IMG/VR virus record: IMGVR_UViG_3300013902_000267
Strand: one strand, 5' to 3'
Source: a virus
Taxonomy: Duplodnaviria; Heunggongvirae; Uroviricota; Caudoviricetes
Length of the DNA: 64,000 nucleotides
Shown here: in pieces, positions 223 to 64,000 of the stretch
How positions within the stretch are numbered: the stretch's first letter is position 1
Layout: the number at the start of each line of letters is the position of its first letter
Program-made: the position numbers and the translations under genes
The notes under the pieces: model-generated
Databases searched by the model: none
The model's input: the letters and a program-made list of their open reading frames with translations, nothing else
What the model was told of the DNA's origin: nothing

Positions 223-846
223 TTAATCTTCATCATCCCAATAATCATAATATTCATTTGGATCATAATTTAATTCTTTATCTTCCTTAAAATTATCAAT
301 CACCTTAGAATTTTCAACAAATTCTTTTACTTTTTCTATAATATCTGCATCGTTAATCATTATTTCTTGAGTGCCATCTGTTAACATTAAACCATCAATA
401 TTTATTTTATCGATTTTACATTCAGTTTCATCTGGATCATCAGGTTGATCATAATCATGTGAACGCATACCTGGCGTATAATCAACCCAACAATCAATGT
501 CTGCATTAAATGCTAAACTTACGCCATAATCTTCCATTGAACGTGTTAATATTGTTGCTGTTTCATTCTTTGGATCAACATCTGGTATAATATTACACAT
601 TAAACAATCGTCATCTTGATCATATTGCTCTATATATCCATTATCATTAAGAAGATCCATAATTAATGAATTAATTAATTCTTGTGGAAGTGATTCCATA
701 TCAGAAAGATCAATATCTCCATTTTCATCATAATACTTTGGATCAATATTAGATGATGTTATTATACCTTCATTAAGTGATTTCTTAAGTGCTGAAGCAA
801 TACCATTTACTAATGATTCATATAATGCTTTATTTTGTTTCTTCAT
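223..846 (-). CDS. Hypothetical acidic (D/E-rich) protein
   Basis: Intact 207-aa ORF in the standard code. No recognisable motif. Confidence 0.45.
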   Translation of the reverse strand: MKKQNKALYESLVNGIASALKKSLNEGIITSSNIDPKYYDENGDIDLSDMESLPQELINSLIMDLLNDNGYIEQYDQDDDCLMCNIIPDVDPKNETATILTRSMEDYGVSLAFNADIDCWVDYTPGMRSHDYDQPDDPDETECKIDKINIDGLMLTDGTQEIMINDADIIEKVKEFVENSKVIDNFKEDKELNYDPNEYYDYWDDED

Positions 847-7598: not shown

Positions 7599-8109
7599 TA
7601 TAAACATATTACCCGGTGCAAAATTTGAATGTACAATATATAAAGGCAACGGACATTATGAAAGTTCATATGGAACTATTATGAAATGCAATGATAGATT
7701 AGTATTAATGTTGTGTGGACTTTTGTTTTTTGGATATGACTATCATTCTTGGAATAGTATTCATACTTATAATAAAAAACATTATCTGTATTATAATTAT
7801 TATAAGAATGATAACGATAGTATGAAAATAAAAGGTATTGTATGGTATTTAGATTTTGAAAAATATCCAGATAATTTTGGATTGTCTCCAAAATTATTTG
7901 TTGTTACTGATATATGGTTTAATAATATACATATATATAAAAGTAATTATATGTTGAAGAAATACAAACCAAGTTTAAAACCAAATTATATACATGAAGC
8001 AAATGAAAATTGTAAATGTTTTAAATATTGCGGTGGTAGTGTATATTCATCGGAAAAGTTAGAGGAATATGCAGAAGTAATACCTAATAAAAATTATAAT
8101 TATGAATAA
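7549..8109 (+). CDS. Hypothetical protein
   Basis: 186-aa ORF. Overlaps the upstream ORF by about 50 nt; the true start may be the later ATG at about 7558. Confidence 0.4.
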   Translation: MQGMKYKLTIDDTNIININILPGAKFECTIYKGNGHYESSYGTIMKCNDRLVLMLCGLLFFGYDYHSWNSIHTYNKKHYLYYNYYKNDNDSMKIKGIVWYLDFEKYPDNFGLSPKLFVVTDIWFNNIHIYKSNYMLKKYKPSLKPNYIHEANENCKCFKYCGGSVYSSEKLEEYAEVIPNKNYNYE

Positions 8110-9580
8110 TATTAAAGAAAATAATTTTTTCATTCCTAGAAAAATTGCTGTAGGATTTGTAAAAAGAGCAAATACATATTCAGGAAAGTTATCTTATATT
8201 ACTTATTATGATAATACTAATAAATTACGTAAGGACGTATCTTGGAATGGTTGGAGAGATAAAAATATAGAACCTGTATATACGGATAATATTCCAACAA
8301 CAGGTTTTATTATTAATAAACGTGCAGGAGGCGAAAAATGGGGATGGAACCAAAGAGCAACATATGCGCGTATATATGATCCAAGAGGGTTTGAATTTGA
8401 GATAACTATAGATAATCTTCTTTGGATTCTGGAATATACTAATTCAGAAAACAAGGAATTAAAAGGACAATTTGTATATAGTTGGTATGGAACTGAACTT
8501 GTACTTATGCCTATTGTTTCATCTGATTATGAAGAATCTAAACGTTTATCTGAACAACAATATAATAAAACATCGTTTAAAGAACGCGATTTAATTCCTG
8601 GAACACTTTATAAAATGAAAGGTAAGGAATTAAATGAATTGGTATATATTGGTAAAGTAAAAGTATCTACTGAATTCAATATGTCTTATGTTAATAAATT
8701 AGCATTTGTACCTATACAGGATTCTTGGAAGTTATATTCACATTATGATAAAAATATCAACAGATCTGATTTCTTTATATTTAAAAGTGTTTCGTCTGTT
8801 ATAGCAGAAATGCAACAAAATTATTTTAGTGACGATATTGTAAAAGAATATCTACATAGATTTGATATGTGCGCGTATTCATATAATTTCTGGAATAATT
8901 TTGGTAATTTCATTGATAAATTTGTTTCTGACCATCCATGTATAATGAATGATTATAAAAAACCATATAAGATAGAATATAATAGATATAGCACAGAGAA
9001 GAATAATTATAATAATATTATTGATAAATTCGAATATAATGGTATAAAGTTAGATTCATTAAGAATTATTCCTGAATGGTTAATCCAAACAGACAGAGAA
9101 CACATATTTTATGAAAATACAAGTGTATTAAAATCAGTTATATCCGATGATGGTAAATCCGTATTGATAAAAGATCAATATCCTACTATAGAAAAGATTA
9201 ATACATTTAATAGGATTGTATATAAACGAATGTATGATTTCATGAATATTGATTTAAATACAAATACATTTAATAAAATATGTGATCCCGGATTGTGGGA
9301 TGAATATAGAGGTCATCATTCTTGCGAAGTATCAAATATTATATATAAGCATCCATCAGAAACTACAGATGTTCAGAAAGCAAGAGAAATTAATACTCAG
9401 GTTTCATTAAATGATAACAGAACATTCTTATATTATATAACGAAGGATAATTATATATCTATATCATTACAGGAAATGATACGGAATCATCGTTATATGA
9501 AATTCGGTTTCTCGAATGGTATAGATGAGAATAAATGGGTAACATTAGATGTAATATTGTTACCAAAAAAGATTAAGTAA
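8102..9580 (+). CDS. Hypothetical protein (492 aa)
   Basis: Long intact ORF in the standard code. Confidence 0.5.
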   Translation: MNNIKENNFFIPRKIAVGFVKRANTYSGKLSYITYYDNTNKLRKDVSWNGWRDKNIEPVYTDNIPTTGFIINKRAGGEKWGWNQRATYARIYDPRGFEFEITIDNLLWILEYTNSENKELKGQFVYSWYGTELVLMPIVSSDYEESKRLSEQQYNKTSFKERDLIPGTLYKMKGKELNELVYIGKVKVSTEFNMSYVNKLAFVPIQDSWKLYSHYDKNINRSDFFIFKSVSSVIAEMQQNYFSDDIVKEYLHRFDMCAYSYNFWNNFGNFIDKFVSDHPCIMNDYKKPYKIEYNRYSTEKNNYNNIIDKFEYNGIKLDSLRIIPEWLIQTDREHIFYENTSVLKSVISDDGKSVLIKDQYPTIEKINTFNRIVYKRMYDFMNIDLNTNTFNKICDPGLWDEYRGHHSCEVSNIIYKHPSETTDVQKAREINTQVSLNDNRTFLYYITKDNYISISLQEMIRNHRYMKFGFSNGIDENKWVTLDVILLPKKIK

Positions 9581-14389: not shown

Positions 14390-15286
14390 ATGGCAACATG
14401 GAATCAAGCAGTTCAATAGATGGGTAAGTTTTATCAATAGAATATACATACATATCAAGGAGGTAAATCAGGACATGCGACAGGTGCTAGACGTTCTTAT
14501 TCATGTCCTTTAGTTGGACACAGTGTAGGAGATGATTGTTCAGGATTTACTTCTGCGTGTTTATAGTTATTTGGAGCATTTCCAGGCTCATATATTGTTT
14601 CATCTAGTGGTTTTGCATCAACATCTGGTGCAACAGCCGCATATTTAAGAAAAGCTGGATTTTCACCGTTAAGATATATTAGTTACTCATCTTTATAGCC
14701 ATATGATATTGTTGCAAGAAATGGACATGTTGAAGTATTTTGTGGTATGAAGGGAAGTTCACCAATGTCATACGCATGGGGAAATATTCATGATGGCATA
14801 AATGGACATGTTGGTATGCCATGTTGGTTTTCTAAACAGTCTTATTCTATTGTATGGAGAAATTCTGGTGTAAGTATAGATACACCATTAGATTTTTCTT
14901 CAGTGTCTGGCGGTTCATTACAACAATAGATGAATTCTGGATATGGTACAGGTGGAACATTAAATGGGTAGACAGGTTCATAGTTTAATTATACATCAAA
15001 TACATATCCTGTTCATGATGAATATGAAACTATTTCATCTGGTAATGGTTCAAAATCTGTATTTGAAATTGTAGGTGAAAATACATTACGTATGGCATAT
15101 ACAAATTCATCATATATACAACAATTAGATTCATCTAATTATTAGTTAAAAAATACTCGTATATATTCAACTAATGATGCATCTATAATATTAGATGAAT
15201 TATCAATACCATTAGATCCATTTGATACGAGTGTTAATACATTAGATTCAAGTGTTATTGATAATTCAGTTAAAACAAATAATTAA
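14390..15286 (+). CDS. NlpC/P60-family peptidoglycan endopeptidase (virion- or tail-associated lysin); TAG-recoded (8 TAG)
   Basis: Catalytic-Cys signature 'GDDCSGFTSAC' (NlpC/P60 'DCSGF'). One frame from ATG 14390 to TAA 15284-15286, interrupted only by TAG. C-terminal module shared with the next gene. Confidence 0.65.
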
Positions 15287-15292
15287 TAATAT

Positions 15293-16333
15293 ATGGCTGG
15301 CAAGAAATTACTTAATGGTGTTTATATAACAAAGAAAATAATGGAAGCTTTTAATCTTAAAGATTATCAGGCTGCTGGATTTGCTGGTTGTTTTATGGAA
15401 GAATCTGGTTGTGATCCCGGTGCATATAATGCCGCTGAAAAATCTGGAAGATTTAAAGGTTCATCAGCGAACGGTGCAGGTTATGGTGCAGGTCTTGCAT
15501 AGTGGTCTAATGCATGGAAACGGTAGATATAGAGATAGTTTAATAATTCAAGGCCTATAGAAAATTGGACATTAGATTAGCAAATAGCTATTGTTACTAA
15601 AGGCTGTTCATAGTCTTTTGTAAATTTATTAAGAAAATGTACATCAGTAGGTTAGTCTACAGATATTGTTTTAAGAGGATATGAAAATGGTTCTGCAGGT
15701 AAAGGTACTAAATTACGTTCATAGCAATCAATGAAAGCATATACGTGGTGTAAGACATCATATATGGCAGATGGTAGTAGACGTACGTTTAGTGATGGAT
15801 ATATTGGTGCATTAACATGTAGAACATCATGGGCTAATGCAGTTTTAAGTAAAATGGGATCAGTTAATCTTGCAGATTTATCCGGATTAGGAACAGAAGT
15901 AGGTGGAGGATTAGGTGATGATGGCTCTTTTGGTTCTACTGGTGGAGGAGGAACTGGAGATTCAAACGCATATCCTGTTCATGATGAATATGAAACATTT
16001 ACTGGACAAGGTGGAAATATATTTGCAAATGCAAAAGATAATGCATTTCAATTAGCTGCTGATGCATCAAAATCTAAATTTTCATCTAAAGATTCTGAAG
16101 CATCTAAGCATACACGTATATATTCTACAAATGATTCTTGTATTGTTTTAGATGAATTAAGTATACCATATGATCCAAATGATCCAACTATTGAATATGC
16201 AAATCAAAATGTAAAAGCGGAAGATGTTAAGAAAGATACATCTACTAATGCAAAAGATAATACTAAAGACACATCTACAAATAAAAGTACAAATAAATCT
16301 AATACTACAAAAAAGACAACTAAATCTAAATAA
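15293..16333 (+). CDS. Phage tail lysozyme-like protein (Phage_lysozyme2 family); TAG-recoded (about 9 TAG)
   Basis: 'AAGFAGCFMEESGCDPGAYNAAE...GAGYGAGLA-Q-WS' matches the tail-lysozyme family signature. The family has Q where this gene has TAG. Confidence 0.6.
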
Positions 16334-39035: not shown

Positions 39036-40082
39036 TTATTCAGATACATTATCTTTCATAACTTCATGATATTGTTCCTTTGCATATTCTTGCATATCAG
39101 GAACGTCATCTGTTTCATCAATAATTTCAATATTGAGTATTGTTTCGATAACATCCTCCAATGTTACAATACCTCTAAACGTTCCATATTCATCAGTAAT
39201 TGCAGAAATATGTTCATGATTCTTTACCATATCATTAAATATATCTGATACATCTGTAGTATCAATATAGTTATGAATATCATGGACATAATCAGAAATC
39301 TTAATATCCTCCTTTGTTAAATCCAATTCATTCTTAAGAATATAACCACTACAATAGTTATTCATATTCATACAAGGAATACGAGAGAATGTATCACCAT
39401 TAGAAAGATATTTATATAAATCTGTATCTTTATGAACTGTTATATAATCCGCAATAGTTTCAACAACAGTTGCAGGCGTCATAATATCTTCAGCTTTATA
39501 TTGATTAAGTTTCAATATACGTTGAATAATCATATTCTCTTTCTTATCAATTACTCCCTCTTTTGCACCTTCATCTGTCATTGCAATAATCTCTTCACGT
39601 GAAATAGCAACAGCATTATCATTACTAATAAGACGTGTTACAAAATTAAGAATCTTAACCAGTGGATATGTAATATAAATCATTATATTAATTACACGAG
39701 TAACATACAATGTAATATTTTTCCAATAATTTGCACCTATAGTTTTTGGTAAAATCTCAGCAAACATAAGAATCAATACTGTAAATATTGCTGATATGAT
39801 ACCTATAAATGAAGCGCCATCAATACCTTGTTCAACTGCATATGCTGATGCAGCTGAACCAACAATAGATGCACCTACTGTATTTGCAATAGTATTAATA
39901 ATAAGGATAGCAGACAATGGTTTATCCATATTTTCCTTAAAATTTCTTAATATATCTGCCCCAGATTTTCCTTTAAGTGTAGATACAAAAGACATAGGTG
40001 TAGAAGACAAACATGCTTCACATAACGAGCAAATTGCTGATACCACAATGGCAATCAACATATAAATTATAATTGTTTCCAT
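39036..40082 (-). CDS. CNNM/CorC-family transporter (DUF21 transmembrane domain plus CBS pair)
   Basis: N-terminal multi-TM DUF21-like region. 'IMTP...' CBS-pair region. 348 aa. Confidence 0.5.
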   Translation of the reverse strand: METIIIYMLIAIVVSAICSLCEACLSSTPMSFVSTLKGKSGADILRNFKENMDKPLSAILIINTIANTVGASIVGSAASAYAVEQGIDGASFIGIISAIFTVLILMFAEILPKTIGANYWKNITLYVTRVINIMIYITYPLVKILNFVTRLISNDNAVAISREEIIAMTDEGAKEGVIDKKENMIIQRILKLNQYKAEDIMTPATVVETIADYITVHKDTDLYKYLSNGDTFSRIPCMNMNNYCSGYILKNELDLTKEDIKISDYVHDIHNYIDTTDVSDIFNDMVKNHEHISAITDEYGTFRGIVTLEDVIETILNIEIIDETDDVPDMQEYAKEQYHEVMKDNVSE

Positions 40083-40087
40083 TTAGC

Positions 40088-40396
40088 TTAATCTTTTTTA
40101 TAATAATCATTCAGCCAATCACATTTTTTAAGATAATGGATATATTCACCATTACGGAATGATCCCTCTAAATATTGTGTATCATCCCATGTTTCTTCAT
40201 GTGTATAACCTGTCTGAAGACTATGACATAATACTCTTACATCATTACATTCATCTTCATTGAAATCAGTTAATAATGTAAATACCATATCACCTTCACC
40301 ACCACCATTACGGAATGTATAACCAGTTTTCAGATATTGAGGACGAGACCAGAAATCTGAATGATTCATAGGATAGAATTGTACTTTATTACTCAT
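40088..40396 (-). CDS. Hypothetical protein
   Basis: 102-aa ORF. Confidence 0.35.
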   Translation of the reverse strand: MSNKVQFYPMNHSDFWSRPQYLKTGYTFRNGGGEGDMVFTLLTDFNEDECNDVRVLCHSLQTGYTHEETWDDTQYLEGSFRNGEYIHYLKKCDWLNDYYKKD

Positions 40397-40434
40397 AATT
40401 ATTTTATTTTTAATTGTTTAATATACCATATTAA

Positions 40435-40698
40435 TTAGAATGGCAGTTCAGATTCAATAACACCTGGCTCTCCTAATGGGAGAAAATCCATACATGTATT
40501 AGTATTAAATACACGATCAAATGCATACATTACAGAAAACTTTACAAACTCATCCTTATCAACAATAAGATCTGATGTTTCCTGCTGAATATATGATGCT
40601 TCTGCAACTAATGTATTTAATGTATCATTATCAGTTAATTCTTTATTAAAACGATTCTTATATTCGTTTTTAATCATTTCTATTAATGTTGTATTCAT
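40435..40698 (-). CDS. Hypothetical protein
   Basis: 87-aa ORF preceded by promoter-motif copy 5. Confidence 0.4.
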   Translation of the reverse strand: MNTTLIEMIKNEYKNRFNKELTDNDTLNTLVAEASYIQQETSDLIVDKDEFVKFSVMYAFDRVFNTNTCMDFLPLGEPGVIESELPF

Positions 40699-40721
40699 AT
40701 TTCTTATTTTTTATAATTGAA

Positions 40722-40743
40722 TTATTACATCACAAAGATACAC
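40722..40743 (-). promoter_or_regulatory. Conserved promoter-like motif (variant GTGTATCTTTGTGATGTAATAA), copy 5
   Basis: Same family as 9602..9624. 25 nt upstream of the ATG of 40435..40698. Confidence 0.45.
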
Positions 40744-40810
40744 ATATTTTTTAAAACAAAAAAATGATGATACTATATTTTTCAATATAATACCATCATT
40801 TAATATTTAA

Positions 40811-41974
40811 TTATTGTTCGTCAATATAACTATTTGAATCATCATTATCAATATTTTCAGATTGTTCATCTTCAATATTAGTTATACTCTTTAATATATT
40901 ATCTTTATATTTTTTATTTATACATTTATTTAATATATATGGTTCCATAGTTTCCGATCTACTAAACATAAATCCATTTGATTCATATAAATTTGAATTC
41001 TTTTTACATAAAGCAGATATTCTAGAAAATGCAACACCTGTTATCTTTTCCGCATCTTTTAATTTATTACATTTATATAACAATTTTCCGTTTAAATTAA
41101 ATACATTTACTCCTTTTTGTGTTAATAATATATCTTTATTTTTATAATTTACACAATAATTATATATTTCATTAGTCCATTTTCTAGTTAATGTAGGTAA
41201 CTAATATTTTATTATATAATTTTCATAATAATATTTAAAAATAGTTCTTGCTTTCTTAGATGATATAATATAATAACCAAAATTTTTTGTTTTATCTTCT
41301 ATAAAAATATTTGATGTTTTATCCTATAATATTTCTTCAAATCTTTGTTTTATATATAATAGTGTTTCATATGTTCCTACACAACTTATATATAAACGTT
41401 TACTTTTATGTCTATTTTCATTATATACTCCTATAGAACCATCTCCATCTATTACACCTATAATAAAGCAATCCTTATATATAGTTTCTAATATTGGTGG
41501 TATATATACATTCGTTTTCTATTTAGTAATATTAAAATTTTTATATAAATCATTCACTATCTACTCAGATAAAATATGAAAACTTACATTTTTAAATTTT
41601 TTATTATTTAAAATATTATAACCATAATATAATTTATATGTTGATGATATATTATATTTCAACTATTTTAAAAAATTCTCATCTTTTATTGATAATTTTA
41701 TATTCAAATTTTTATTTGTTTTATCTATAGAACCATCGGCAGCTATAAACCCTGCATAGTAAGAATTTATCGGATTTATTAATGAAAAATAATTATCATT
41801 AACATTATAAATACGTTCTCCTTTAATATTTTTCTTTAGTTGTAAATTATATACCTTTTTCCAATATGTTAAATTCTTACAAATTTTACCGGTAATTTCT
41901 TTTGATGCAACCTATTCTGAAATATTTTTATTATTTGCATAATCTATAATTTCCTATAATATATTTTTATCCAT
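40811..41974 (-). CDS. LAGLIDADG homing endonuclease (double-motif); TAG-recoded (7 TAG)
   Basis: 'YYAGFIAADGSI' and 'FIIGVIDGDGSIGV' LAGLIDADG motifs. 388-codon frame from ATG (rc 41972-41974) to TAA. Contains the track fragment 40811..41083. Confidence 0.7.
40860..40886. repeat. 27-nt repeat GATTGTTCATCTTCAATATTAGTTATA (copy A, 3' end of the LAGLIDADG gene)
   Basis: Identical to 42066..42092 at the 3' end of the Rnl2-like ligase gene. Encodes '...ITNIEDEQS' in both. Confidence 0.8.
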
Positions 41975-57888: not shown

Positions 57889-58188
57889 TCAATAATCTTC
57901 TGCATCTCGTGAAACTCTCATATTCTTTAAATCATTAATGAGTTTTTCACACTCTTTTAACAATACATATATAGTAGAAATAATTATCACTATAATAAAT
58001 AATAATATTCCTAATGCTATATAAAACCCTGAATCTTCATAATTAGAAATAAACTTAAAACATGTAATTATATATGTAAAAGTAAATGGTATTACTAAAC
58101 ATAAAATCCAATTTATTATATGTCTCCATACATGTTTCTCTATATATTCGTTTCTCTCTTTATGTGATTTAAACCATTTATTTTCCAT
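57889..58188 (-). CDS. Hypothetical membrane protein
   Basis: 99 aa with two hydrophobic segments. Confidence 0.35.
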   Translation of the reverse strand: MENKWFKSHKERNEYIEKHVWRHIINWILCLVIPFTFTYIITCFKFISNYEDSGFYIALGILLFIIVIIISTIYVLLKECEKLINDLKNMRVSRDAEDY

Positions 58189-58434: not shown

Positions 58435-58623
58435 TTAATTATTCAAATGTATATCATTAATACATAAAGGGATAAAAATATAAAATATATTTTCTATATA
58501 TAATGATAAAATCAAATTCCATAAATTATCTATAGTTAACATATTATAATACCAAAATCCCAATATAGTTAGTACGCTACCTATGATAGAACATAAAATA
58601 GTAAATTTATATATTTGTTTCAT
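58435..58623 (-). CDS. Hypothetical small membrane protein
   Basis: 62 aa, hydrophobic. Confidence 0.3.
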   Translation of the reverse strand: MKQIYKFTILCSIIGSVLTILGFWYYNMLTIDNLWNLILSLYIENIFYIFIPLCINDIHLNN

Positions 58624-59043: not shown

Positions 59044-59147
59044 ATTTTATTTTAAATAAAAAAGAGATATAACAAAATAATCTGTTATACCTCTTATAAA
59101 ATATATCTTAAAATAATAAAAAATTACATAATATATTGTAAAAGCAT

Positions 59148-60137
59148 CTATGTTTCCTCATCAGCTTTTAATTTTGGATATGCAGCTCTAAGTATCTGTA
59201 ATACACGTGTTTCTGTCATTCCATGTTCTTCTGCAACTTGCCATGTATTCTTTTCACCACGTCCATTAATACCATAGCAATCACATACAATTTCACCATC
59301 TCTTTCACCAAGAACTCTCTTTACATTATCTTCAAGTTCTCTTTCAAGATCAGCGTTATTAAGATTACTATCAGGGTCTTTAAATGTCCTATTAGCTGTT
59401 ACATCACCTAATGTTGTTTTAGAATCATCATCATCCCCGTATGATTTATCCAAACTATTTGCACGTGTATTTGCTTCCATTGTTTGTGCAAATGTTTCAT
59501 ATTTCAAATCTGGATGTTTCTTTACGAGAACATTATAAATATCATCAATATCAGGTTCATAACCATTCTTATTATATAATTGATCCTTGATACGAGCGGC
59601 TTCACGAGCAATACTACCCATATTACGGGGAACTGCCATATGTCCACCTACCTCATCAACAGCAGTCATAATTTCTCTACGAATATACCAAATAGCATAA
59701 GAAACAAAACGTACATCTTTACCTGGCAAACTTGGATCATATGTATCTGCTGCTTGCATAAGTCCTATATTTCCATATTGAATCATATCTTCCTTTGGTA
59801 TATTAATATTTTTATACTTATTGACAACAGAAATAACAAATGGAAGATTTGCGGACACCAACTTATTCTTTGCCTTTTCAATTTCTCTCTTATTATCAGA
59901 ATGTTGAATAATATCAGCAAGTTTCACTTCATCTGCATGTGATAATTGTTTTTTCTTATTAATAGCATGTAAATATGCAATAGTAGACTTTGCTGTATTT
60001 TCATCCTGTGTAATAGCAAAATCATCATGCAAATCCATATGCATTCCATTATTAGCTTCATTGAGTTTCTTTCTAATAGTCTTAGAAACATTTCTCATGA
60101 TACTTTCATACAATGTCTTCTTTTCATTTAACTTCAT
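59148..60137 (-). CDS. Sigma-70 family RNA polymerase sigma factor
   Basis: Region 2 'GNIGLMQAADTYDPS...RFVSYAIWYIRREI'. Region 4 'TWQVAEEHGMTETRVLQILRAAYPKLK'. 329 aa. Confidence 0.7.
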   Translation of the reverse strand: MKLNEKKTLYESIMRNVSKTIRKKLNEANNGMHMDLHDDFAITQDENTAKSTIAYLHAINKKKQLSHADEVKLADIIQHSDNKREIEKAKNKLVSANLPFVISVVNKYKNINIPKEDMIQYGNIGLMQAADTYDPSLPGKDVRFVSYAIWYIRREIMTAVDEVGGHMAVPRNMGSIAREAARIKDQLYNKNGYEPDIDDIYNVLVKKHPDLKYETFAQTMEANTRANSLDKSYGDDDDSKTTLGDVTANRTFKDPDSNLNNADLERELEDNVKRVLGERDGEIVCDCYGINGRGEKNTWQVAEEHGMTETRVLQILRAAYPKLKADEET

Positions 60138-62091: not shown

Positions 62092-62187
62092 TGGATATAG
62101 ATGGACTCGAACCACCATGTATCTGCCCTAGAATTATGATACAAACTAACATCATATTAGTCGCGTTTACCATTTCGCCATATATCC
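62092..62187 (-). tRNA. Type II (long-variable-arm) tRNA, about 96 nt. The anticodon loop TATGATG gives TGA (Ser) if canonical, but position 33 is atypical
   Basis: Acceptor GGATATA/TATATCC. T-arm GGTGG-TTCGAGT-CCATC. Anticodon stem ACTAA/TTAGT. Unusually long variable arm (stem TGTATC/GATACA with a 14-nt loop). Confidence 0.45.
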
Positions 62188-62193
62188 ATATAG

Positions 62194-62266
62194 CAGGCCT
62201 GATGAGATTCGAACTCACAACAACATGATTAAAATTCGTGTGCTCTACCAATTGAGCTACAGGCCC
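62194..62266 (-). tRNA. tRNA-Lys (anticodon TTT)
   Basis: 5' GGGCCTGTAGCTCAATTGGTAGAGCA... T-arm GTGAG-TTCGAAT-CTCAT. Anticodon loop ATTTTAA. 73 nt. One C-A mismatch in the anticodon stem. Confidence 0.65.
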
Positions 62267-62374
62267 AAAGTTCTATTTTAAATTTCCACGCAATAGAACT
62301 CCGAAGATTTGTAGATCTGTGTTCATGGTACTTAATCTAATGCTTGTTTTTAATACTGACGTGTTAACCTCTTC

Positions 62375-62470
62375 ACCAAATCCCCGATTAAATAATATGT
62401 AATAGAGGGGATTCATGGGTTCGAACCATGGATAATCAGTAAAATCATGATATATCACGAATGACACCAT
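62375..62470 (-). ncRNA. tRNA-like fragment: T-arm (CATGG-TTCGAAC-CCATG) plus acceptor 3' strand, with its complement GGGGATT placed downstream. Degenerate, permuted or unusual tRNA
   Basis: The minus strand reads ...CATGGTTCGAACCCATGAATCCCC-(21 nt)-GGGGATT... I could not fold a canonical cloverleaf. Confidence 0.25.
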
Positions 62471-62682
62471 GACAATCTACGTTAACTGTAATACTAAAGC
62501 TCTTGACTCAATGCTAACGCTAAAATCTAGGATTCTGTTTATGCTAAATGTAATCAAGCTAATGCTTTAGTCAATTTACATATGTTATATATGATATTAT
62601 ATTCAAAGTCTATTATTCATATCAAAAATATTTTTAAGAAATAAATATCATAAATGAATCGATAACATTTATTATATAATAT

Positions 62683-63897
62683 ATGAATAAGAATTATAAC
62701 AAACTATATGAAGAAATGATGTCAGATATTTCAGTTATCGTTAAAAAGAAAATAAATGAAGCATATGACAATCAGCTTCTCGAAGAATATGGTGCAAAGG
62801 ATATGTTTAATGATATTATGAAAGAAGCATCAAAAGAAGGTAAAATCTTTTATAAGCATCTTAAATAGTTTATAATTTATATCATCAAAAAATTACAAGA
62901 GACAGATCAATATAAAAAAGCTGAAAAACTTATGAATGCGTATGTTCAGAAAGTACAGAAATATATTGATGAACATAAGAAGATTACTCCGAGACGTATG
63001 TTGAAAATTACTGTTGCTGTATTGACAATGTATGGAGGTGTTTCAATGATACAAGATTGTAAATAGATGATTAAATCTTTATAGGGTAATGTTGAAACTT
63101 ATGAATAGAAAGTAGAAAATGTACCGGATGAAAAGCAACAAGAAGTAATAGTAGAAGAACCTGAAGATTTTGTTGTTGAAGTTAAAGATGAAGCAAAAGA
63201 AAAATTAAGTGTCAAGAAAGTATCTACTGAAGATATTAATAATACACCTGAAAAGAAATTTAAGGAAGACAAGAATTTCAATTTTAAGTCAAGCAACGAG
63301 GCTCGCGAATTTATTAAACATCATGAGTTATGCTTACTTTACCCTTATTACGCAAAACCCGAAGAGGAAGCAAAAGGAATGGTAACTATTGGTTATGGTC
63401 ATGTTGTATTGGAATCAGATGGTGAATTATACAAGAAAGTATAGCAATTAAAAAAGAAAGGCTTAATTAAACAATCATTTGTTACAAAAAATGGTAAAAC
63501 TATTTTAAACCCTAATCATTGTAAAACCATTATAACAAAGACTGACGCAGATAAATTATTTTAGAAAGATATTAAGATTGCTGAATAGCGTGCATATAGA
63601 ACTATACAAAATATGCCTACTGATGATGATAATGTTAAATATTATATGTTATATAATCAAAAAATAAGAGATGGTTTAACATCATTATGTTATAATGCTG
63701 GATAGCTTAAACATGAAAAATATACATTCATAACAAAAGGTCTTGCAAAATCTAGATATGATTATCAAGCATAGAAAATAAATGCAGGTGATTATAATGT
63801 ATCCTTTAAATATTTCAAGAATATTAAAGATAATCCTAACAGAAGAAATGAGGAATATAAGTTATTCTTTATGAACGCAAATAAGTCTATGTCATAA
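62683..63897 (+). CDS. T4-type lysozyme (GH24) endolysin with a long N-terminal extension containing a TM segment (membrane-anchored or SAR-like); TAG-recoded (about 12 TAG). Alternative starts at 62932 and 63067
   Basis: Single frame. '...HHELCLLYPYY...GMVTIGYGH' matches the T4L catalytic Glu and 'TIGIGH' regions. 'LAKSRYDYQAQ' resembles 'LAKSRWYNQ'. 'PNRRNEEYKLF' resembles 'PNRAKRVITTF'. TM 'ITVAVLTMYGGVSMI' about 110 aa upstream of the catalytic domain. Confidence 0.65.
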
Positions 63898-63922
63898 TAA
63901 AAAATAAATTTTAATTAAATAT

Positions 63923-64000
63923 ATGAAAAAATTATTTGAAGCAAAATAGAAGCCATTAGTTGTTTATAATCCTGCTGATATTTTCATGAAATATAATATG
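63923..64000 (+). CDS. Hypothetical protein, 5' partial at the window end; contains an in-frame TAG
   Basis: ATG 63923 'MKKLFEAK-Q-KPLVVYNPADIF...'. Runs off the window. Confidence 0.3.

What the first reader, a model, noticed from the sequence alone, without database searches (positions are those of the whole stretch)
62683..63897. Endolysin with an N-terminal membrane-anchoring extension and about 12 TAG codons
The T4-lysozyme fold (catalytic Glu in HHELCLL, TIGYGH, LAKSRY) lies in the same frame as an upstream region containing a TM helix (ITVAVLTMYGGVSMI) and an acidic linker. No stop other than TAG intervenes, back to the ATG at 62683, 62932 or 63067. This suggests a SAR-like or membrane-tethered endolysin, or a holin-endolysin fusion produced by suppression. 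Which ATG is used, and whether the upstream part is made separately by terminating at TAG when suppressor levels are low, is unclear. A TAG-dependent holin or endolysin switch would be an elegant lysis timer.
Basis: partly seen in the sequence, partly recalled or inferred. Interest (0 to 1): 0.5.

Follow-up and report, generated by a model that had tools for sequence, protein, structure and literature searches.

The report
Recoded Lak-phage lysozyme with head-targeting-like leader
This is one ordinary late gene of a Lak megaphage, a phage already known to read TAG as glutamine. It encodes a T4-type lysozyme behind a weakly hydrophobic helix, and its first 26 residues look like a capsid-targeting leader, so it may be an injected enzyme rather than the lysis enzyme.

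Summary
The reading frame is real. It runs 404 codons from ATG 62683 to TAA 63895-63897 and is broken only by 9 in-frame TAGs, not about 12.

- **Origin and code:** The window is a Lak-B Prevotella megaphage. Published work already shows this group reads TAG as Gln.
- **One gene:** Every TAG here is a sense codon in Lak-A/C orthologues, and the reverse also holds (7 of 14 are Gln). TAG positions are not conserved. dN/dS is about 0.12 along the whole frame, and more than 40 homologues keep the full-length architecture. This is one recoded gene, not a fusion made by suppression or a switch at a fixed TAG.
- **Start and promoter:** Translation starts at 62683. Upstream lies a T4-like late-promoter motif (AATAAATA) that marks TAG-containing genes across the genome.
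- **Protein layout:** a 26-aa leader, a helical domain, a weakly hydrophobic helix, an acidic disordered linker and a GH24 lysozyme domain. It fails the SAR definition because the helix lies 105 residues in.
- **Leader:** At least 11 unrelated ORFs share it, and the 8 whose upstream DNA I inspected carry the late-promoter core. It repeats the KA[LI]YES and LNE of the capsid protein's N-terminus, and the phage has a T4 gp21-type prohead protease.

Best reading: a head-targeted, ejected, membrane-inserting muramidase (about 0.45). A membrane-tethered endolysin is a close rival (about 0.3).

The parts
62640..62647 (+). AATAAATA, a T4-late-promoter-like motif 36-43 nt upstream of the start codon
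   Evidence: The core ATAAATAT is present 25-40 nt upstream of the start in 8 of 9 homologous loci. In Lak-B1, AATAAATA lies within 60 nt upstream of 62/207 TAG-containing ORFs but only 13/310 TAG-free ORFs. For [AT]ATAAATA the counts are 76/207 against 27/310 (Fisher P 1.4e-14), with positions peaking at -30 to -35. The T4 late consensus is TATAAATA, and its first T is often A in relatives (PMC1524935). Promoter function is inferred, not shown.
62683..63897 (+). Single coding sequence: 404 codons plus TAA, read with TAG = Gln
   Evidence: The only stops other than TAG are the TAA at 62677-62679, two codons upstream of the ATG at 62683, and the terminal TAA. The protein is identical to the Lak-B1 gene. 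Whole-gene dN/dS against Lak-A1 is 0.126. 36 homologues were found, 32 of them full length at 372-415 aa, and more distant members run 419-459 aa.
62683..62760 (+). Leader, aa 1-26 (MNKNYNKLYEEMMSDISVIVKKKINE); it ends in INE and contains LYE
   Evidence: A profile of the motif finds it at the N-terminus of unrelated ORFs in the window, in Lak-B1 and in other Lak loci. Among 7 paralogous leaders pS is 0.71 and pN is 0.25, so the peptide is kept at the protein level. KA[LI]YES occurs 5 times in the Lak-B1 proteome: 3 at N-terminal leaders, 1 in the leader-like C-terminal motif of the 450-aa ORF, and 1 in the capsid-protein N-terminus.
62761..62994 (+). Conserved all-helical N-terminal domain, aa 27-104 (INEAYDNxLLEEYG, KKLQETNQYKKAE, YIxEHKKITPRR)
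   Evidence: Conserved down to 35% overall identity. dN/dS for aa 1-104 is 0.125. AlphaFold predicts helices at low confidence, pLDDT 46-73. No Pfam or PHROG family matches. Function is unknown.
62998..63051 (+). Weakly hydrophobic helix, aa 106-123 (MLKITVAVLTMYGGVSMI), with a basic N-terminal flank (HKKITPRR)
   Evidence: It is the most hydrophobic segment in 45 of the 46 family members scored (P0047 is the exception) and sits at a conserved position. Kyte-Doolittle 19-residue scores range from 1.25 to 2.2, and the window protein scores 1.32. Gly/Ala/Ser/Thr make up 4-11 of 19 residues, and the preceding flank is net positive. In distant members the sequence diverges but the character is kept. 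Y117 and G118 are invariant. Membrane insertion is inferred.
63052..63282 (+). Acidic, variable, predicted-disordered linker, about aa 124-200
   Evidence: Net charge is -6 over aa 125-214. pLDDT is about 28-34. Length and sequence vary between lineages. It has the highest dN of any segment, 0.194.
63283..63894 (+). GH24 / T4-type lysozyme domain, about aa 201-404. Glu215 is at 63325-63327, Glu228 at 63364-63366 and Thr235 at 63385-63387
   Evidence: PF00959 scores 3.2e-6, above its cut-off. PHROG_7 scores 2e-11. pLDDT is 83-97. Top Foldseek matches are T4 lysozyme and the SpmX muramidase. A family profile aligns to T4 lysozyme residues 20-36 and 52-138. E215 and E228 are nearly invariant and T235 is invariant.
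62866..62868 (+). In-frame TAG, codon 62
   Evidence: AAA (Lys) in Lak-A1 and Lak-C1.
63064..63066 (+). In-frame TAG, codon 128
   Evidence: TCA (Ser) in Lak-A1 and Lak-C1.
63082..63084 (+). In-frame TAG, codon 134
   Evidence: CAA (Gln) in Lak-A1 and Lak-C1.
63106..63108 (+). In-frame TAG, codon 142
   Evidence: CAA (Gln) in Lak-A1 and Lak-C1.
63442..63444 (+). In-frame TAG, codon 254
   Evidence: CAA in Lak-A1 and CAG in Lak-C1, both Gln.
63562..63564 (+). In-frame TAG, codon 294
   Evidence: TTA (Leu) in Lak-A1 and Lak-C1.
63586..63588 (+). In-frame TAG, codon 302
   Evidence: GAT (Asp) in Lak-A1 and Lak-C1.
63703..63705 (+). In-frame TAG, codon 341
   Evidence: AAT (Asn) in Lak-A1 and Lak-C1.
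63772..63774 (+). In-frame TAG, codon 364
   Evidence: CAG (Gln) in Lak-A1 and Lak-C1.
62092..62187 (-). 96-nt tRNA-like gene carrying an invariant UUCUAGG loop: the candidate TAG (amber) decoder, divergent from the lysozyme gene
   Evidence: Rfam tRNA scores 45 bits. Orthologues exist in four other Lak loci. The acceptor arm, T arm and second hairpin covary; the first hairpin's loop is not conserved; the second hairpin's loop always contains UUCUAGG, which reads as U33-CUA-R37. It is the only tRNA-like candidate found by a pattern scan of Lak-B1 (a second pattern hit looked like chance), and ARAGORN misses it. Its anticodon arm is not canonical, so decoding function is inferred.
63925..64000 (+). 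Start of the next gene on the same strand, probably co-transcribed (450 aa in Lak-B1, 6 TAGs)
   Evidence: The gap is 27 nt and no terminator was found. The full ORF was read in Lak-B1. Its C-terminus carries a leader-like motif, KKALYESIMSKVAKTIKRKL. It is linked to the lysozyme gene in three clades. No family matches.

Best explanation
**Gene structure (confidence about 0.9).** Positions 62683-63897 are one late gene of a Lak-B Prevotella megaphage, written in the phage's known alternative code (TAG = Gln). The nine TAGs are ordinary Gln codons. Full-length protein can only be made once the phage's TAG-decoding system is active. That places the gene in the phage's TAG-rich class, which also shares a T4-like late-promoter motif. 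No particular TAG acts as a switch.

**Protein layout.**
- a 26-aa leader ending in INE
- a conserved helical domain
- a weakly hydrophobic helix with a basic N-terminal flank
- an acidic disordered linker of about 80 aa
- a GH24 muramidase domain

**Role (inferred, confidence about 0.45).** The leader works like a T4 capsid-targeting sequence.
1. It brings the protein into the assembling prohead.
2. The phage's gp21-family protease removes it by cutting after Glu, at LYE and/or INE26.
3. The mature protein travels in the head.
4. At the next infection it is ejected into the envelope. The hydrophobic helix inserts into the inner membrane, and the lysozyme, on its flexible linker, opens the peptidoglycan locally.

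On this reading it is an ejection protein, not the enzyme that bursts the cell.
For: **Shown: identity, code and gene structure**
- The protein is identical to the Lak-B1-B9 gene apart from the nine TAG positions (97.5-97.8% by tblastn of the TAG-as-Gln query) and about 77% identical to Lak-A/C.
- TAG = Gln in Lak phages is published.
- All 14 TAG columns between the window and Lak-A/C pair a TAG with a sense codon, and 7 of these are CAA or CAG.
- No TAG position is conserved over 9 lineages.
- dN/dS is 0.125 for the N-terminus, 0.115 for the helix and 0.146 for the lysozyme domain.
- The architecture is conserved in 36 homologues plus more distant ones.

**Shown: gene class**
- TAG density is 2.23 per 100 codons, rank 52 of 517 ORFs in Lak-B1.
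- The AATAAATA motif is upstream of this gene and enriched upstream of TAG-containing ORFs (P 1.4e-14).
- It matches the T4 late-promoter consensus.

**Shown: the leader**
- It is shared by at least 11 (up to 17) otherwise unrelated Lak-B1 ORFs. These include a sigma-70-family factor and very acidic small proteins.
- Five ORFs with the leader motif lie beside the lysozyme gene in another Lak lineage.
- It is maintained at the protein level.
- All six TAG-free leader ORFs carry the ATAAATA core upstream, against 10.6% of TAG-free ORFs overall.

**Shown: the head-assembly connection**
- Lak-B1 encodes a Peptidase_S77 (T4 gp21 family) protease, E 9.6e-15. Leader-bearing ORFs sit next to it.
- The capsid protein's N-terminus carries KAIYES at residues 27-32.
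- Its only two (L/I)xE motifs in the first 100 residues are IYE at 29-31 and LNE at 62-64. T4 gp23 loses a 65-residue propeptide (PMC5694885).
- In two lineages the lysozyme gene lies three to four genes from the portal. In another it lies 5 kb from the gp23 homologue.

**Precedents**
- T4 internal proteins share only a capsid-targeting sequence (PMC3012670).
- The giant-phage SPN3US ejection protein gp47 has a cleaved propeptide followed by a transmembrane segment.
- These proteases cut after Glu (PMC5694885).
Against: - No virion proteomics exists for Lak phages, so neither packaging nor cleavage is shown.
- GH24 enzymes are typical endolysins, and PHROGs files the domain under 'endolysin'.
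- The phage already has tail-associated wall hydrolases: window 15293-16333 is PF18013 'tail lysozyme'. A third entry enzyme looks redundant.
- The leader (about 25 aa) is longer than the T4 capsid-targeting sequence (10-20 aa) and shows no demonstrable homology to it.
- A leader-like motif also occurs near the C-terminus or inside the downstream 450-530-aa protein.
- The basic-inside arrangement of the helix fits equally well with export of the enzyme from the cytoplasm by Sec, which is the endolysin reading.
- The (L/I)xE specificity of the Lak protease is extrapolated from T4 (my knowledge of Black et al. 1994). The papers I read state only that cleavage follows Glu.
Confidence: 0.45

Rival explanations
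1. It is a membrane-tethered endolysin. The internal helix acts as a type II signal-anchor (N-terminus in, C-terminus out). Sec exports the linker and lysozyme to the periplasm late in infection. From the inner membrane the enzyme reaches the wall on its leash of about 80 aa and helps lyse the cell. Timing would come from late transcription and from the need for TAG decoding. The cytoplasmic N-domain and leader would serve regulation.
For: - The domain is GH24 and matches PHROG_7 'endolysin'.
- A basic flank precedes the helix and an acidic region follows it, in all family members.
- The disordered linker is always present.
- The gene carries the late-promoter motif and has high TAG density.
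- The tail already carries its own lysozyme.
- The published model says TAG recoding gates lysis genes.
Against: - No holin, pinholin or spanin candidate lies beside the gene in any of six lineages, and its neighbours differ between them.
- The phage has another plausible endolysin, a soluble Amidase_3 at Lak-B1 271211-271858, E 4.8e-27.
- The helix is weakly hydrophobic (Kyte-Doolittle 19-residue score 1.32) and lies 105 residues in, which makes it a poor signal-anchor.
- This reading does not explain why the protein shares its leader with a sigma factor, with acidic proteins and with the capsid protein's N-terminus.
Confidence: 0.3
2. It is a soluble enzyme with a modular N-terminal domain. 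The hydrophobic helix is buried in, or oligomerises, a helical N-terminal domain such as a binding or coiled-coil module, and never enters a membrane. The protein would then be a cytoplasmic endolysin that needs a holin encoded elsewhere.
For: - The Kyte-Doolittle score of 1.32 is below the usual 1.6 threshold, the hydrophobic core is only 15 residues long, and the Y-G-G motif is invariant like a structural motif.
- AlphaFold draws the region as a continuation of a helical domain.
- From my knowledge, endolysins of jumbo phages infecting Gram-negative hosts often carry N-terminal binding domains (for example KZ144).
Against: - Distant members replace the sequence with clearly transmembrane-like, Gly/Ala/Ser/Thr-rich stretches while keeping position and flanking charge.
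- No binding-domain family matches.
- AlphaFold confidence in this region is low (pLDDT 40-57).
Confidence: 0.1
3. It is a classical SAR endolysin. The helix is a signal-arrest-release domain that leaves the membrane on depolarisation and so activates the enzyme.
For: The helix is weakly hydrophobic, contains Gly-Gly and is rich in Gly/Ala/Ser/Thr, like SAR domains (definition in PMC9239132).
Against: - SAR domains are N-terminal with a very short cytoplasmic tail, and added basic residues lock them in the bilayer.
- Here a conserved 105-residue domain with 21 K/R would have to cross the membrane.
- The long linker separates the helix from the catalytic domain, so the refolding-based activation known for P1 Lyz and R21 is unlikely.
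- No pinholin lies nearby.
Confidence: 0.05
4. It is a TAG-dependent two-product gene or a holin-endolysin fusion. At low suppressor levels a separate upstream protein would be made by stopping at TAG. At high levels a fusion with the lysozyme would be made, acting as a lysis timer.
For: Without TAG decoding the frame would stop at codon 62. The general idea that recoding delays late and lysis genes is published.
Against: - Codon 62 is Lys in Lak-A/C, whose first TAG is at codon 91.
- The first TAG ranges from codon 2 to after the helix in other lineages, and there are 55 TAG columns with none conserved.
- There is no second start or ribosome-entry signature, and internal Mets are not conserved.
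- The upstream part has no holin features: it has one weak helix, and the 61-aa product would lack even that.
Confidence: 0.03

Closest known systems
T4 lysozyme (gp e) and other GH24 phage muramidases (Pfam PF00959)
   Same: The C-terminal 200 residues have the T4-lysozyme fold. The Glu, the TIGxGH strand with Thr, and the LAKSR helix are in place.
   Different: Sequence similarity is very weak (profile E about 0.01 against PDB). The catalytic spacing is E-x12-E-x6-T rather than E-x8-D-x5-T. The domain sits behind about 200 extra N-terminal residues.
SAR endolysins (P1 Lyz, phage 21 R, Mu gp22; PMC9239132)
   Same: Both combine a GH24 catalytic domain with a weakly hydrophobic helix containing Gly-Gly, preceded by basic residues.
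   Different: The helix is internal (aa 106-123), not N-terminal. A conserved 105-aa domain precedes it, and a disordered linker of about 80 aa follows. No pinholin, releasin or spanin lies next to it. It therefore fails the family definition.
T4 internal proteins and Alt, with their capsid-targeting sequence (PMC3012670; PMC5694885)
   Same: A short conserved N-terminal peptide is the only thing shared by otherwise unrelated proteins. It ends in an x-X-Glu site, and the phage has a gp21-family prohead protease and T4-like gp23 and portal.
   Different: The Lak leader is about 25 aa against 10-20 aa, with no demonstrable sequence homology to the T4 sequence. Neither packaging nor cleavage is shown. 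The cargo would include a sigma-70-family factor and a lysozyme, which T4 does not package.
Ejection proteins with membrane and wall activity: SPN3US gp47 (propeptide plus transmembrane segment; PMC5694885). From my own knowledge: T7 gp16 (internal core protein with a lytic transglycosylase domain) and T5 Pb2 (tape measure with fusogenic and muralytic parts)
   Same: A virion-carried protein combines a hydrophobic segment with, or next to, a peptidoglycan-cleaving activity that is used at entry.
   Different: There is no sequence relationship. The enzymatic class differs (GH24 muramidase). Presence in the virion is untested here.
Stop-codon recoding of late and lysis genes in gut phages (Borges et al., bioRxiv 10.1101/2021.08.26.457843; Crisci et al., PMC8346664)
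   Same: This is a TAG-rich gene of a TAG-to-Gln phage, so its translation depends on the code change.
   Different: Nothing differs in principle. This gene is one more example. Those papers tested lysis-gene bias in crAss-like phages and one other recoded clade, not in Lak, and do not describe this protein.

Membership tests
GH24 / Phage_lysozyme (PF00959) | Profile match above the curated threshold | tested here: met
   27.9 bits against a cut-off of 22.3, aa 225-367. PHROG_7 scores 2e-11.
GH24 / Phage_lysozyme (PF00959) | T4-lysozyme fold | tested here: met
   The AlphaFold domain has pLDDT 83-97. Foldseek against PDB gives T4 lysozyme and SpmX muramidase at probability 1.0 with target TM about 0.6.
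GH24 / Phage_lysozyme (PF00959) | Catalytic triad Glu-x8-Asp-x5-Thr | tested here: inconclusive
   E215 and E228 are nearly invariant and T235 is invariant. The spacing is E-x12-E-x6-T and the second acid is Glu, not Asp. Activity was not tested.
SAR (signal-arrest/anchor-release) endolysin | The transmembrane domain is N-terminal, preceded by only a few residues with 1-3 basic charges | tested here: not met
   The helix is at aa 106-123, behind a conserved 104-residue region with 21 K/R. Definition from PMC9239132.
SAR (signal-arrest/anchor-release) endolysin | The transmembrane domain is weakly hydrophobic and rich in Gly/Ala/Ser/Thr | tested here: met
   The Kyte-Doolittle 19-residue score is 1.32. 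Six of 19 residues are G/A/S/T here and 4-11 of 19 across the family.
SAR (signal-arrest/anchor-release) endolysin | Released from the membrane by a pinholin or by depolarisation | not testable with these tools
   This needs expression experiments.
Canonical lysis cassette member (endolysin next to holin and spanin) | Adjacent small membrane proteins or a lipoprotein spanin | tested here: not met
   Neighbours in six lineages are tRNAs, a 450-530-aa protein, fibrous proteins, DNA polymerase B, leader-bearing ORFs, and portal or protease genes. None is holin-like.
Lak code-15 (TAG = Gln) recoded gene | In-frame TAGs correspond to sense codons, mostly Gln, in orthologues, and the frame is under purifying selection across them | tested here: met
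   14 of 14 TAG columns pair with sense codons, 7 of them Gln. dN/dS is about 0.12 throughout. The published assignment is in PMC8346664.
Lak code-15 (TAG = Gln) recoded gene | The phage carries a tRNA with a CUA anticodon | tested here: inconclusive
   ARAGORN finds none in Lak-B1. The tRNA-like gene at 62092-62187(-) has an invariant UUCUAGG loop but a non-canonical arm.
T4-type capsid-targeting sequence or prohead-protease-processed head protein | A short N-terminal peptide shared by otherwise unrelated proteins | tested here: met
   11-17 ORFs in Lak-B1, and more in other Lak loci. Protein-level conservation: pS 0.71 against pN 0.25.
T4-type capsid-targeting sequence or prohead-protease-processed head protein | The phage encodes a gp21-family (Peptidase_S77) prohead protease, and the peptide ends in an x-X-Glu site also present in the capsid protein's N-terminus | tested here: met
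   PF03420 scores 9.6e-15. The leader has LYE and [LI]NE. The capsid-protein N-terminus has KAIYES, IYE at 29-31 and LNE at 62-64.
T4-type capsid-targeting sequence or prohead-protease-processed head protein | The protein is present in the virion with the peptide removed | not testable with these tools
   No Lak virion proteome is available. This needs mass spectrometry.
Programmed read-through or suppression-dependent fusion | A conserved stop position separating two functional units | tested here: not met
   No TAG position is conserved among 9 lineages, and codon 62 is Lys in Lak-A/C.

The most novel reading that the evidence does not exclude
Lak megaphages may use a leader of about 25 aa (K-x-LYE-x-IM-x-x-[IV]S-K-x-[IV]K-K-x-[LI]NE) that copies part of the capsid protein's propeptide. 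On this reading the leader is a capsid-targeting, protease-removed tag that loads a varied cargo into the head for injection. The cargo would include a sigma-70-family factor, many very acidic small proteins and this membrane-inserting GH24 lysozyme. The gene annotated as a lysozyme or endolysin would then be an entry enzyme, and the phage would deliver its own sigma factor with its DNA.
Probability: 0.4. Interest if true: 0.7.

Novelty: new variant of a known kind. Interest (0 to 1): 0.45.

Why it matters
- **Annotation.** In recoded phages a frame full of TAGs is just a gene. In this family, 'T4-type lysozyme' should not be equated with 'the endolysin' without checking.
- **Lak biology.** These 540-550 kb gut phages have never been cultured. 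The shared leader, its echo in the capsid-protein propeptide, the gp21-type protease and the late-promoter motif tied to TAG-containing genes give concrete hypotheses. They bear on how these phages time late expression and on what they may carry into the next cell, and they can be tested by metaproteomics.
- **Open question.** If the cargo idea is right, it extends the T4 internal-protein principle to a megaphage and to new cargo types, a sigma factor and a muramidase.
- **If it is wrong.** The gene is then an unusual membrane-tethered endolysin without a recognisable holin partner. That would also be worth knowing for phages of Bacteroidota, whose lysis systems are poorly understood.

Tried and rejected
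**Searches that gave nothing useful**
- The sigma-70 promoter and intrinsic-terminator scan of 62260-64000 found 17 promoter-like sites against 15.1 expected and no terminators.
- Pfam and PHROGs on the neighbouring ORFs (450 aa, 418 aa, 594 aa) gave no family.
- Pfam on ten leader-bearing ORFs identified only the sigma factor.
- AlphaFold on the N-terminal 145 residues alone reached mean pLDDT 62.8. That is too low for a fold search, so none was run.
- A word-indexed protein search with the leader profile returned only 29-79-aa fragments. These look like standard-code truncations of recoded genes and carry no domain information.
- Rfam found no family for the conserved region upstream of the gene.
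- A viral-contig scan with its most conserved 39-mer returned only Lak-A/B-like contigs, so it added no diversity.

**Weak negatives**
- BLAST and phmmer of remembered T4 lysozyme, T7 lysozyme and lambda R sequences against Lak-B1 ORFs found no further wall hydrolase. The seeds came from memory and remote homologues would be missed.
Its hit was confirmed independently by Pfam.

**Readings rejected**
- The hairpin that Rfam aligns as the anticodon arm of the 96-nt tRNA would give a Ser UGA anticodon. I rejected this because that loop is not conserved between orthologues.
- I considered the conserved 300-nt RNA as a permuted tmRNA. ARAGORN and Rfam do not support this, and the region downstream of the tRNA-like part is too short for a tag reading frame.
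- I considered the leader as a DNA-level shared cassette. Synonymous sites are near saturation, so I rejected it.
Full report
**1. What is in the sequence.**
- Translation of 62683-64000 shows a frame that is open from the ATG at 62683 to the TAA at 63895-63897. It is interrupted only by TAG.
- A stop-to-stop scan that treats TAG as sense gives one 406-codon frame, 62680-63897, with 9 in-frame TAGs.
- Those TAGs are codons 62, 128, 134, 142, 254, 294, 302, 341 and 364.
- The quoted peptide motifs and the ATGs at 62932 and 63067 are all present.
- With about 28% G+C, the chance of 404 codons free of TAA and TGA is about 1e-12 (my arithmetic).

**2. Where the window comes from.**
- A tblastn search with the TAG-as-Gln translation hits only Prevotella Lak megaphages. 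Identity is 97.5-97.8% over the full length to Lak-B1 to B9, where the only mismatches are the TAG positions. Identity is about 77% to Lak-A1, A2 and C1.
- The window protein equals the Lak-B1 protein residue for residue.
- Lak phages are published as using TAG for glutamine, with suppressor tRNAs and RF2 (PMC8346664).
- The idea that recoding delays late and lysis genes is also published (bioRxiv 10.1101/2021.08.26.457843).
- In the window 26 of 85 ORFs contain TAG. In Lak-B1 207 of 517 do. This gene has 2.23 TAG per 100 codons and ranks 52nd.

**3. One gene or several?** I compared codon by codon with Lak-A1 and Lak-C1.
- Each of the nine TAGs here is a sense codon there (Lys, Ser, Gln, Gln, Gln, Leu, Asp, Asn, Gln).
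- Their five TAGs are sense codons here (Gln, Gln, Gln, Glu, Thr).
- dN/dS is 0.125 for residues 1-104, 0.115 for the helix, 0.146 for the lysozyme domain and 0.126 overall.
- DNA of six further lineages shows 5-20 TAGs per gene, always a TAA stop, and 55 TAG columns in the alignment with none conserved. The first TAG lies anywhere from codon 2 to beyond the helix.
- A database search finds 36 homologues, 32 of them full length at 372-415 aa.
- An exhaustive profile search with the N-terminal 145 residues finds more distant members of 419-459 aa with the same layout. It also finds one 247-aa protein that has the N-terminal module with a different C-terminus.
- Met84 and Met129 are not conserved.

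The frame is therefore one gene that starts at 62683. TAG is a plain sense codon in it, and nothing supports a separately made upstream product or a switch at a given TAG.

**4. The protein.**
- *Residues 201-404* are a GH24 domain. Support comes from PF00959 above its threshold, PHROG_7, a confident AlphaFold domain, and best structural matches to T4 lysozyme and the SpmX muramidase. A family profile aligns to T4 lysozyme residues 20-36 and 52-138.
- *Catalytic residues:* Glu215 and Glu228 are nearly invariant and Thr235 is invariant. The spacing differs from the canonical E-x8-D-x5-T.
- *Residues 124-200* are acidic, variable and predicted disordered.
- *Residues 106-123* form the single most hydrophobic stretch in 45 of the 46 family members scored (P0047 is the exception), always about 100 residues before TIGxGH. 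The stretch is weak: the Kyte-Doolittle 19-residue score is 1.32 here and 1.25-2.2 in relatives. It is rich in Gly, Ala, Ser and Thr and is preceded by basic residues. In distant members the sequence changes but the character stays.
- *Residues 27-104* are conserved and helical, match no family, and have low model confidence.

**5. Why it is not a SAR endolysin.** SAR domains are N-terminal, have one to three basic residues before them, and become locked in the membrane if more are added (PMC9239132). Here a conserved 104-residue region with 21 Lys/Arg precedes the helix. No holin, pinholin, releasin or spanin candidate is adjacent in any of six lineages. The neighbours differ from lineage to lineage.

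**6. The leader.**
- While reading neighbours I saw that the first 26-30 residues (MNKNYNKLYEEMMSDISVIVKKKINE) resemble the N-termini of unrelated ORFs.
- A profile finds the motif K-x-LYE-x-IM-x-x-[IV]S-K-x-[IV]K-K-x-[LI]NE at the extreme N-terminus of many ORFs:
  - three in the window: this gene, the sigma-70-family gene at 59124-60137(-) and the ORF at 223-846(-)
  - five ORFs lying beside the lysozyme gene in another lineage
  - 17 hits in the whole Lak-B1 genome, which I fetched in full
- Pfam names only the sigma factor among them. Several others are small and extremely acidic.
- Across seven paralogues the leader codons differ at 71% of synonymous sites but only 25% of non-synonymous sites. 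The peptide, not the DNA, is conserved.
- It is a moderately amphipathic basic helix.

**7. Promoter class.**
- AATAAATA lies 36-43 nt before the start codon. The core ATAAATAT is kept 25-40 nt upstream of the start in 8 of 9 lineages.
- In Lak-B1 the motif lies within 60 nt upstream of 30% of TAG-containing ORFs against 4% of TAG-free ORFs. Chance expectation is about 1%, and Fisher P is 1.4e-14 for [AT]ATAAATA. Positions peak at -30 to -35.
- It matches the T4 late-promoter consensus TATAAATA, whose first base is often A in T4 relatives (PMC1524935).
- All six TAG-free leader ORFs also have the ATAAATA core, against 10.6% of TAG-free ORFs overall.

Leader proteins therefore appear to be expressed with the late, recoded class. 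Promoter function is inferred.

**8. The link to head assembly.**
- Lak-B1 encodes a Peptidase_S77 domain, the T4 gp21 prohead-protease family. I found it with a remembered gp21 sequence and confirmed it with Pfam at 9.6e-15. It is fused to a very acidic region.
- Leader-like ORFs flank the protease gene.
- The gp23-family capsid protein begins ...DKAIYESWAPTIKKITG...AHNTAKLNEDAF.... Its only two (L/I)xE motifs in the first 100 residues are IYE at 29-31 and LNE at 62-64.
- The hexapeptide KA[LI]YES occurs five times in the whole proteome: three times at N-terminal leaders, once in the leader-like C-terminal motif of the 450-aa ORF, and once in the capsid-protein N-terminus.
- T4 gp23 loses a 65-residue propeptide, and T4-family and giant-phage prohead proteases cut after Glu (PMC5694885).
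- T4 internal proteins share only a capsid-targeting sequence (PMC3012670).
- The SPN3US ejection protein gp47 has a cleaved propeptide followed by a transmembrane segment.
- In two lineages the lysozyme gene lies three to four genes from the portal, and in another 5 kb from gp23.

**9. Weighing the roles.**
- *For a packaged, ejected enzyme:* the leader and its echo in the capsid protein, the protease, the late-promoter class, the linkage to head genes, and the precedents.
- *For a tethered endolysin:* the enzyme class, the basic-inside arrangement, the leash-like linker, and the fact that the tail already has its own wall hydrolases. Window 15293-16333 is PF18013, and its neighbour 14390-15286 has a DCSGF motif.
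- *Against the endolysin:* there is no lysis cassette, and a soluble Amidase_3 at Lak-B1 271211-271858 could fill that role.
- I put the ejection-protein reading at about 0.45, the tethered endolysin at about 0.3, a soluble enzyme at about 0.1, classical SAR at about 0.05 and the TAG-switch or fusion reading at about 0.03.
- None of the role assignments is shown. All rest on sequence patterns.

**10. Known or new?** The phage, its code, the gene's existence and the recoding-as-timer hypothesis are all known. I found no description of this protein's architecture, of the shared leader, or of the promoter-to-TAG-class link in the Lak papers I could search. I rate it a new variant of a known kind, with moderate interest.

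Noticed in passing
window 62290-62575, minus strand: A region of about 300 nt between the tRNA genes and the lysozyme gene is far better conserved across Lak clades than the lysozyme protein itself. On the minus strand RNAalifold gives 68 pairs, 11 with compensatory changes. They include a tRNA-like four-way junction: a T-arm with UUCGAAC, a capped acceptor-like hairpin AAUCCCC/GGGGAUU, and a D-like hairpin. No Rfam family matches and ARAGORN calls no tmRNA. This is probably an undescribed structured RNA.
   Followed up: partly
window 62092-62187, minus strand (orthologues at L002 2201-2301 and L009 5162-5259): A tRNA-like gene of 96-101 nt has two hairpins between its D and T arms. The loop of the first is not conserved. 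The loop of the second always contains UUCUAGG, a perfect amber-suppressor anticodon-loop sequence. It is the only tRNA-like candidate in Lak-B1 by pattern scan, and ARAGORN misses it. The gene order ncRNA, tRNA-Lys(UUU), then this gene is conserved and divergent from the lysozyme gene.
   Followed up: partly
Lak-B1 genome-wide (L012-L023); in the window at 62640-62647: [AT]ATAAATA sits 25-40 nt upstream of start codons and is six times more frequent before TAG-containing ORFs than before TAG-free ones (P 1.4e-14). This is a T4-late-promoter-like motif coupled to the recoded gene class.
   Followed up: partly
window 59124-60137, minus strand: A sigma-70-family factor (Sigma70_r2 1.3e-11, plus r3 and r4) carries the same N-terminal leader as the lysozyme and has a GATAAATA motif upstream. 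Its single TAG (codon 330 of 337) is a Lys codon in Lak-B1, so it is a sense codon rather than the stop.
   Followed up: partly
window 223-846, minus strand; Lak-B1 41466, 99336, 232538, 530201 and others: A set of small ORFs with very acidic C-termini share only the leader. They are reminiscent of the diverse T4 internal proteins, and their function is unknown.
   Followed up: partly
window 14390-16333, plus strand: Two adjacent TAG-rich ORFs (8 TAGs each) share a C-terminal region. One is PF18013 'phage tail lysozyme' (7e-13). The other has a DCSGF motif that suggests an NlpC/P60-type peptidase but has no Pfam hit. A 1029-aa ORF with 19 TAGs follows them. This is probably the tail-tip wall-degrading module.
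   Followed up: partly
Lak-B1 271211-271858, minus strand (outside the window): A soluble 215-aa Amidase_3 (4.8e-27) lies directly downstream of a leader-bearing ORF. It is an alternative endolysin candidate for this phage. A homologue lies next to the lysozyme gene in locus L010.
   Followed up: partly
Lak-B1 495986-497731, minus strand (outside the window): The T4 gp21-family prohead protease domain is fused to a long, extremely acidic, scaffold-like region in one 581-aa ORF. LNE occurs at residues 19-21.
   Followed up: partly
L006 6001-7245 and L009 5938-7185: The database start codons of two homologues (MLNG...) fall inside the ATAAATATG promoter-like motif. The true start is probably the ATG nine codons downstream, which matches the other family members.
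   Followed up: no
window 40811-41974, minus strand: A LAGLIDADG-type homing-endonuclease-like ORF (5e-7) with 7 in-frame TAGs sits in an otherwise mostly TAG-free stretch.
   Followed up: no
window 57889-58188 and 58435-58623, minus strand: Two small TAG-free ORFs (99 and 62 aa), each with two strongly hydrophobic segments, lie 4 kb from the lysozyme gene on the other strand. They are holin-like in size but I have no evidence that they are lysis genes.
   Followed up: no
L005 3537-4793; L006 9672-10955; L010 4487-5998; Lak-B1 7751-9211 and 39791-41416: A paralogous family of 418-541-aa proteins has an N-terminus of the form ...ILNEAR.QRTIDPKIW..., which looks like the end of the leader, and an acidic centre. 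It is linked to the lysozyme gene in four lineages. In two of them it lies next to a papain-like peptidase and the portal. No family matches.
   Followed up: partly
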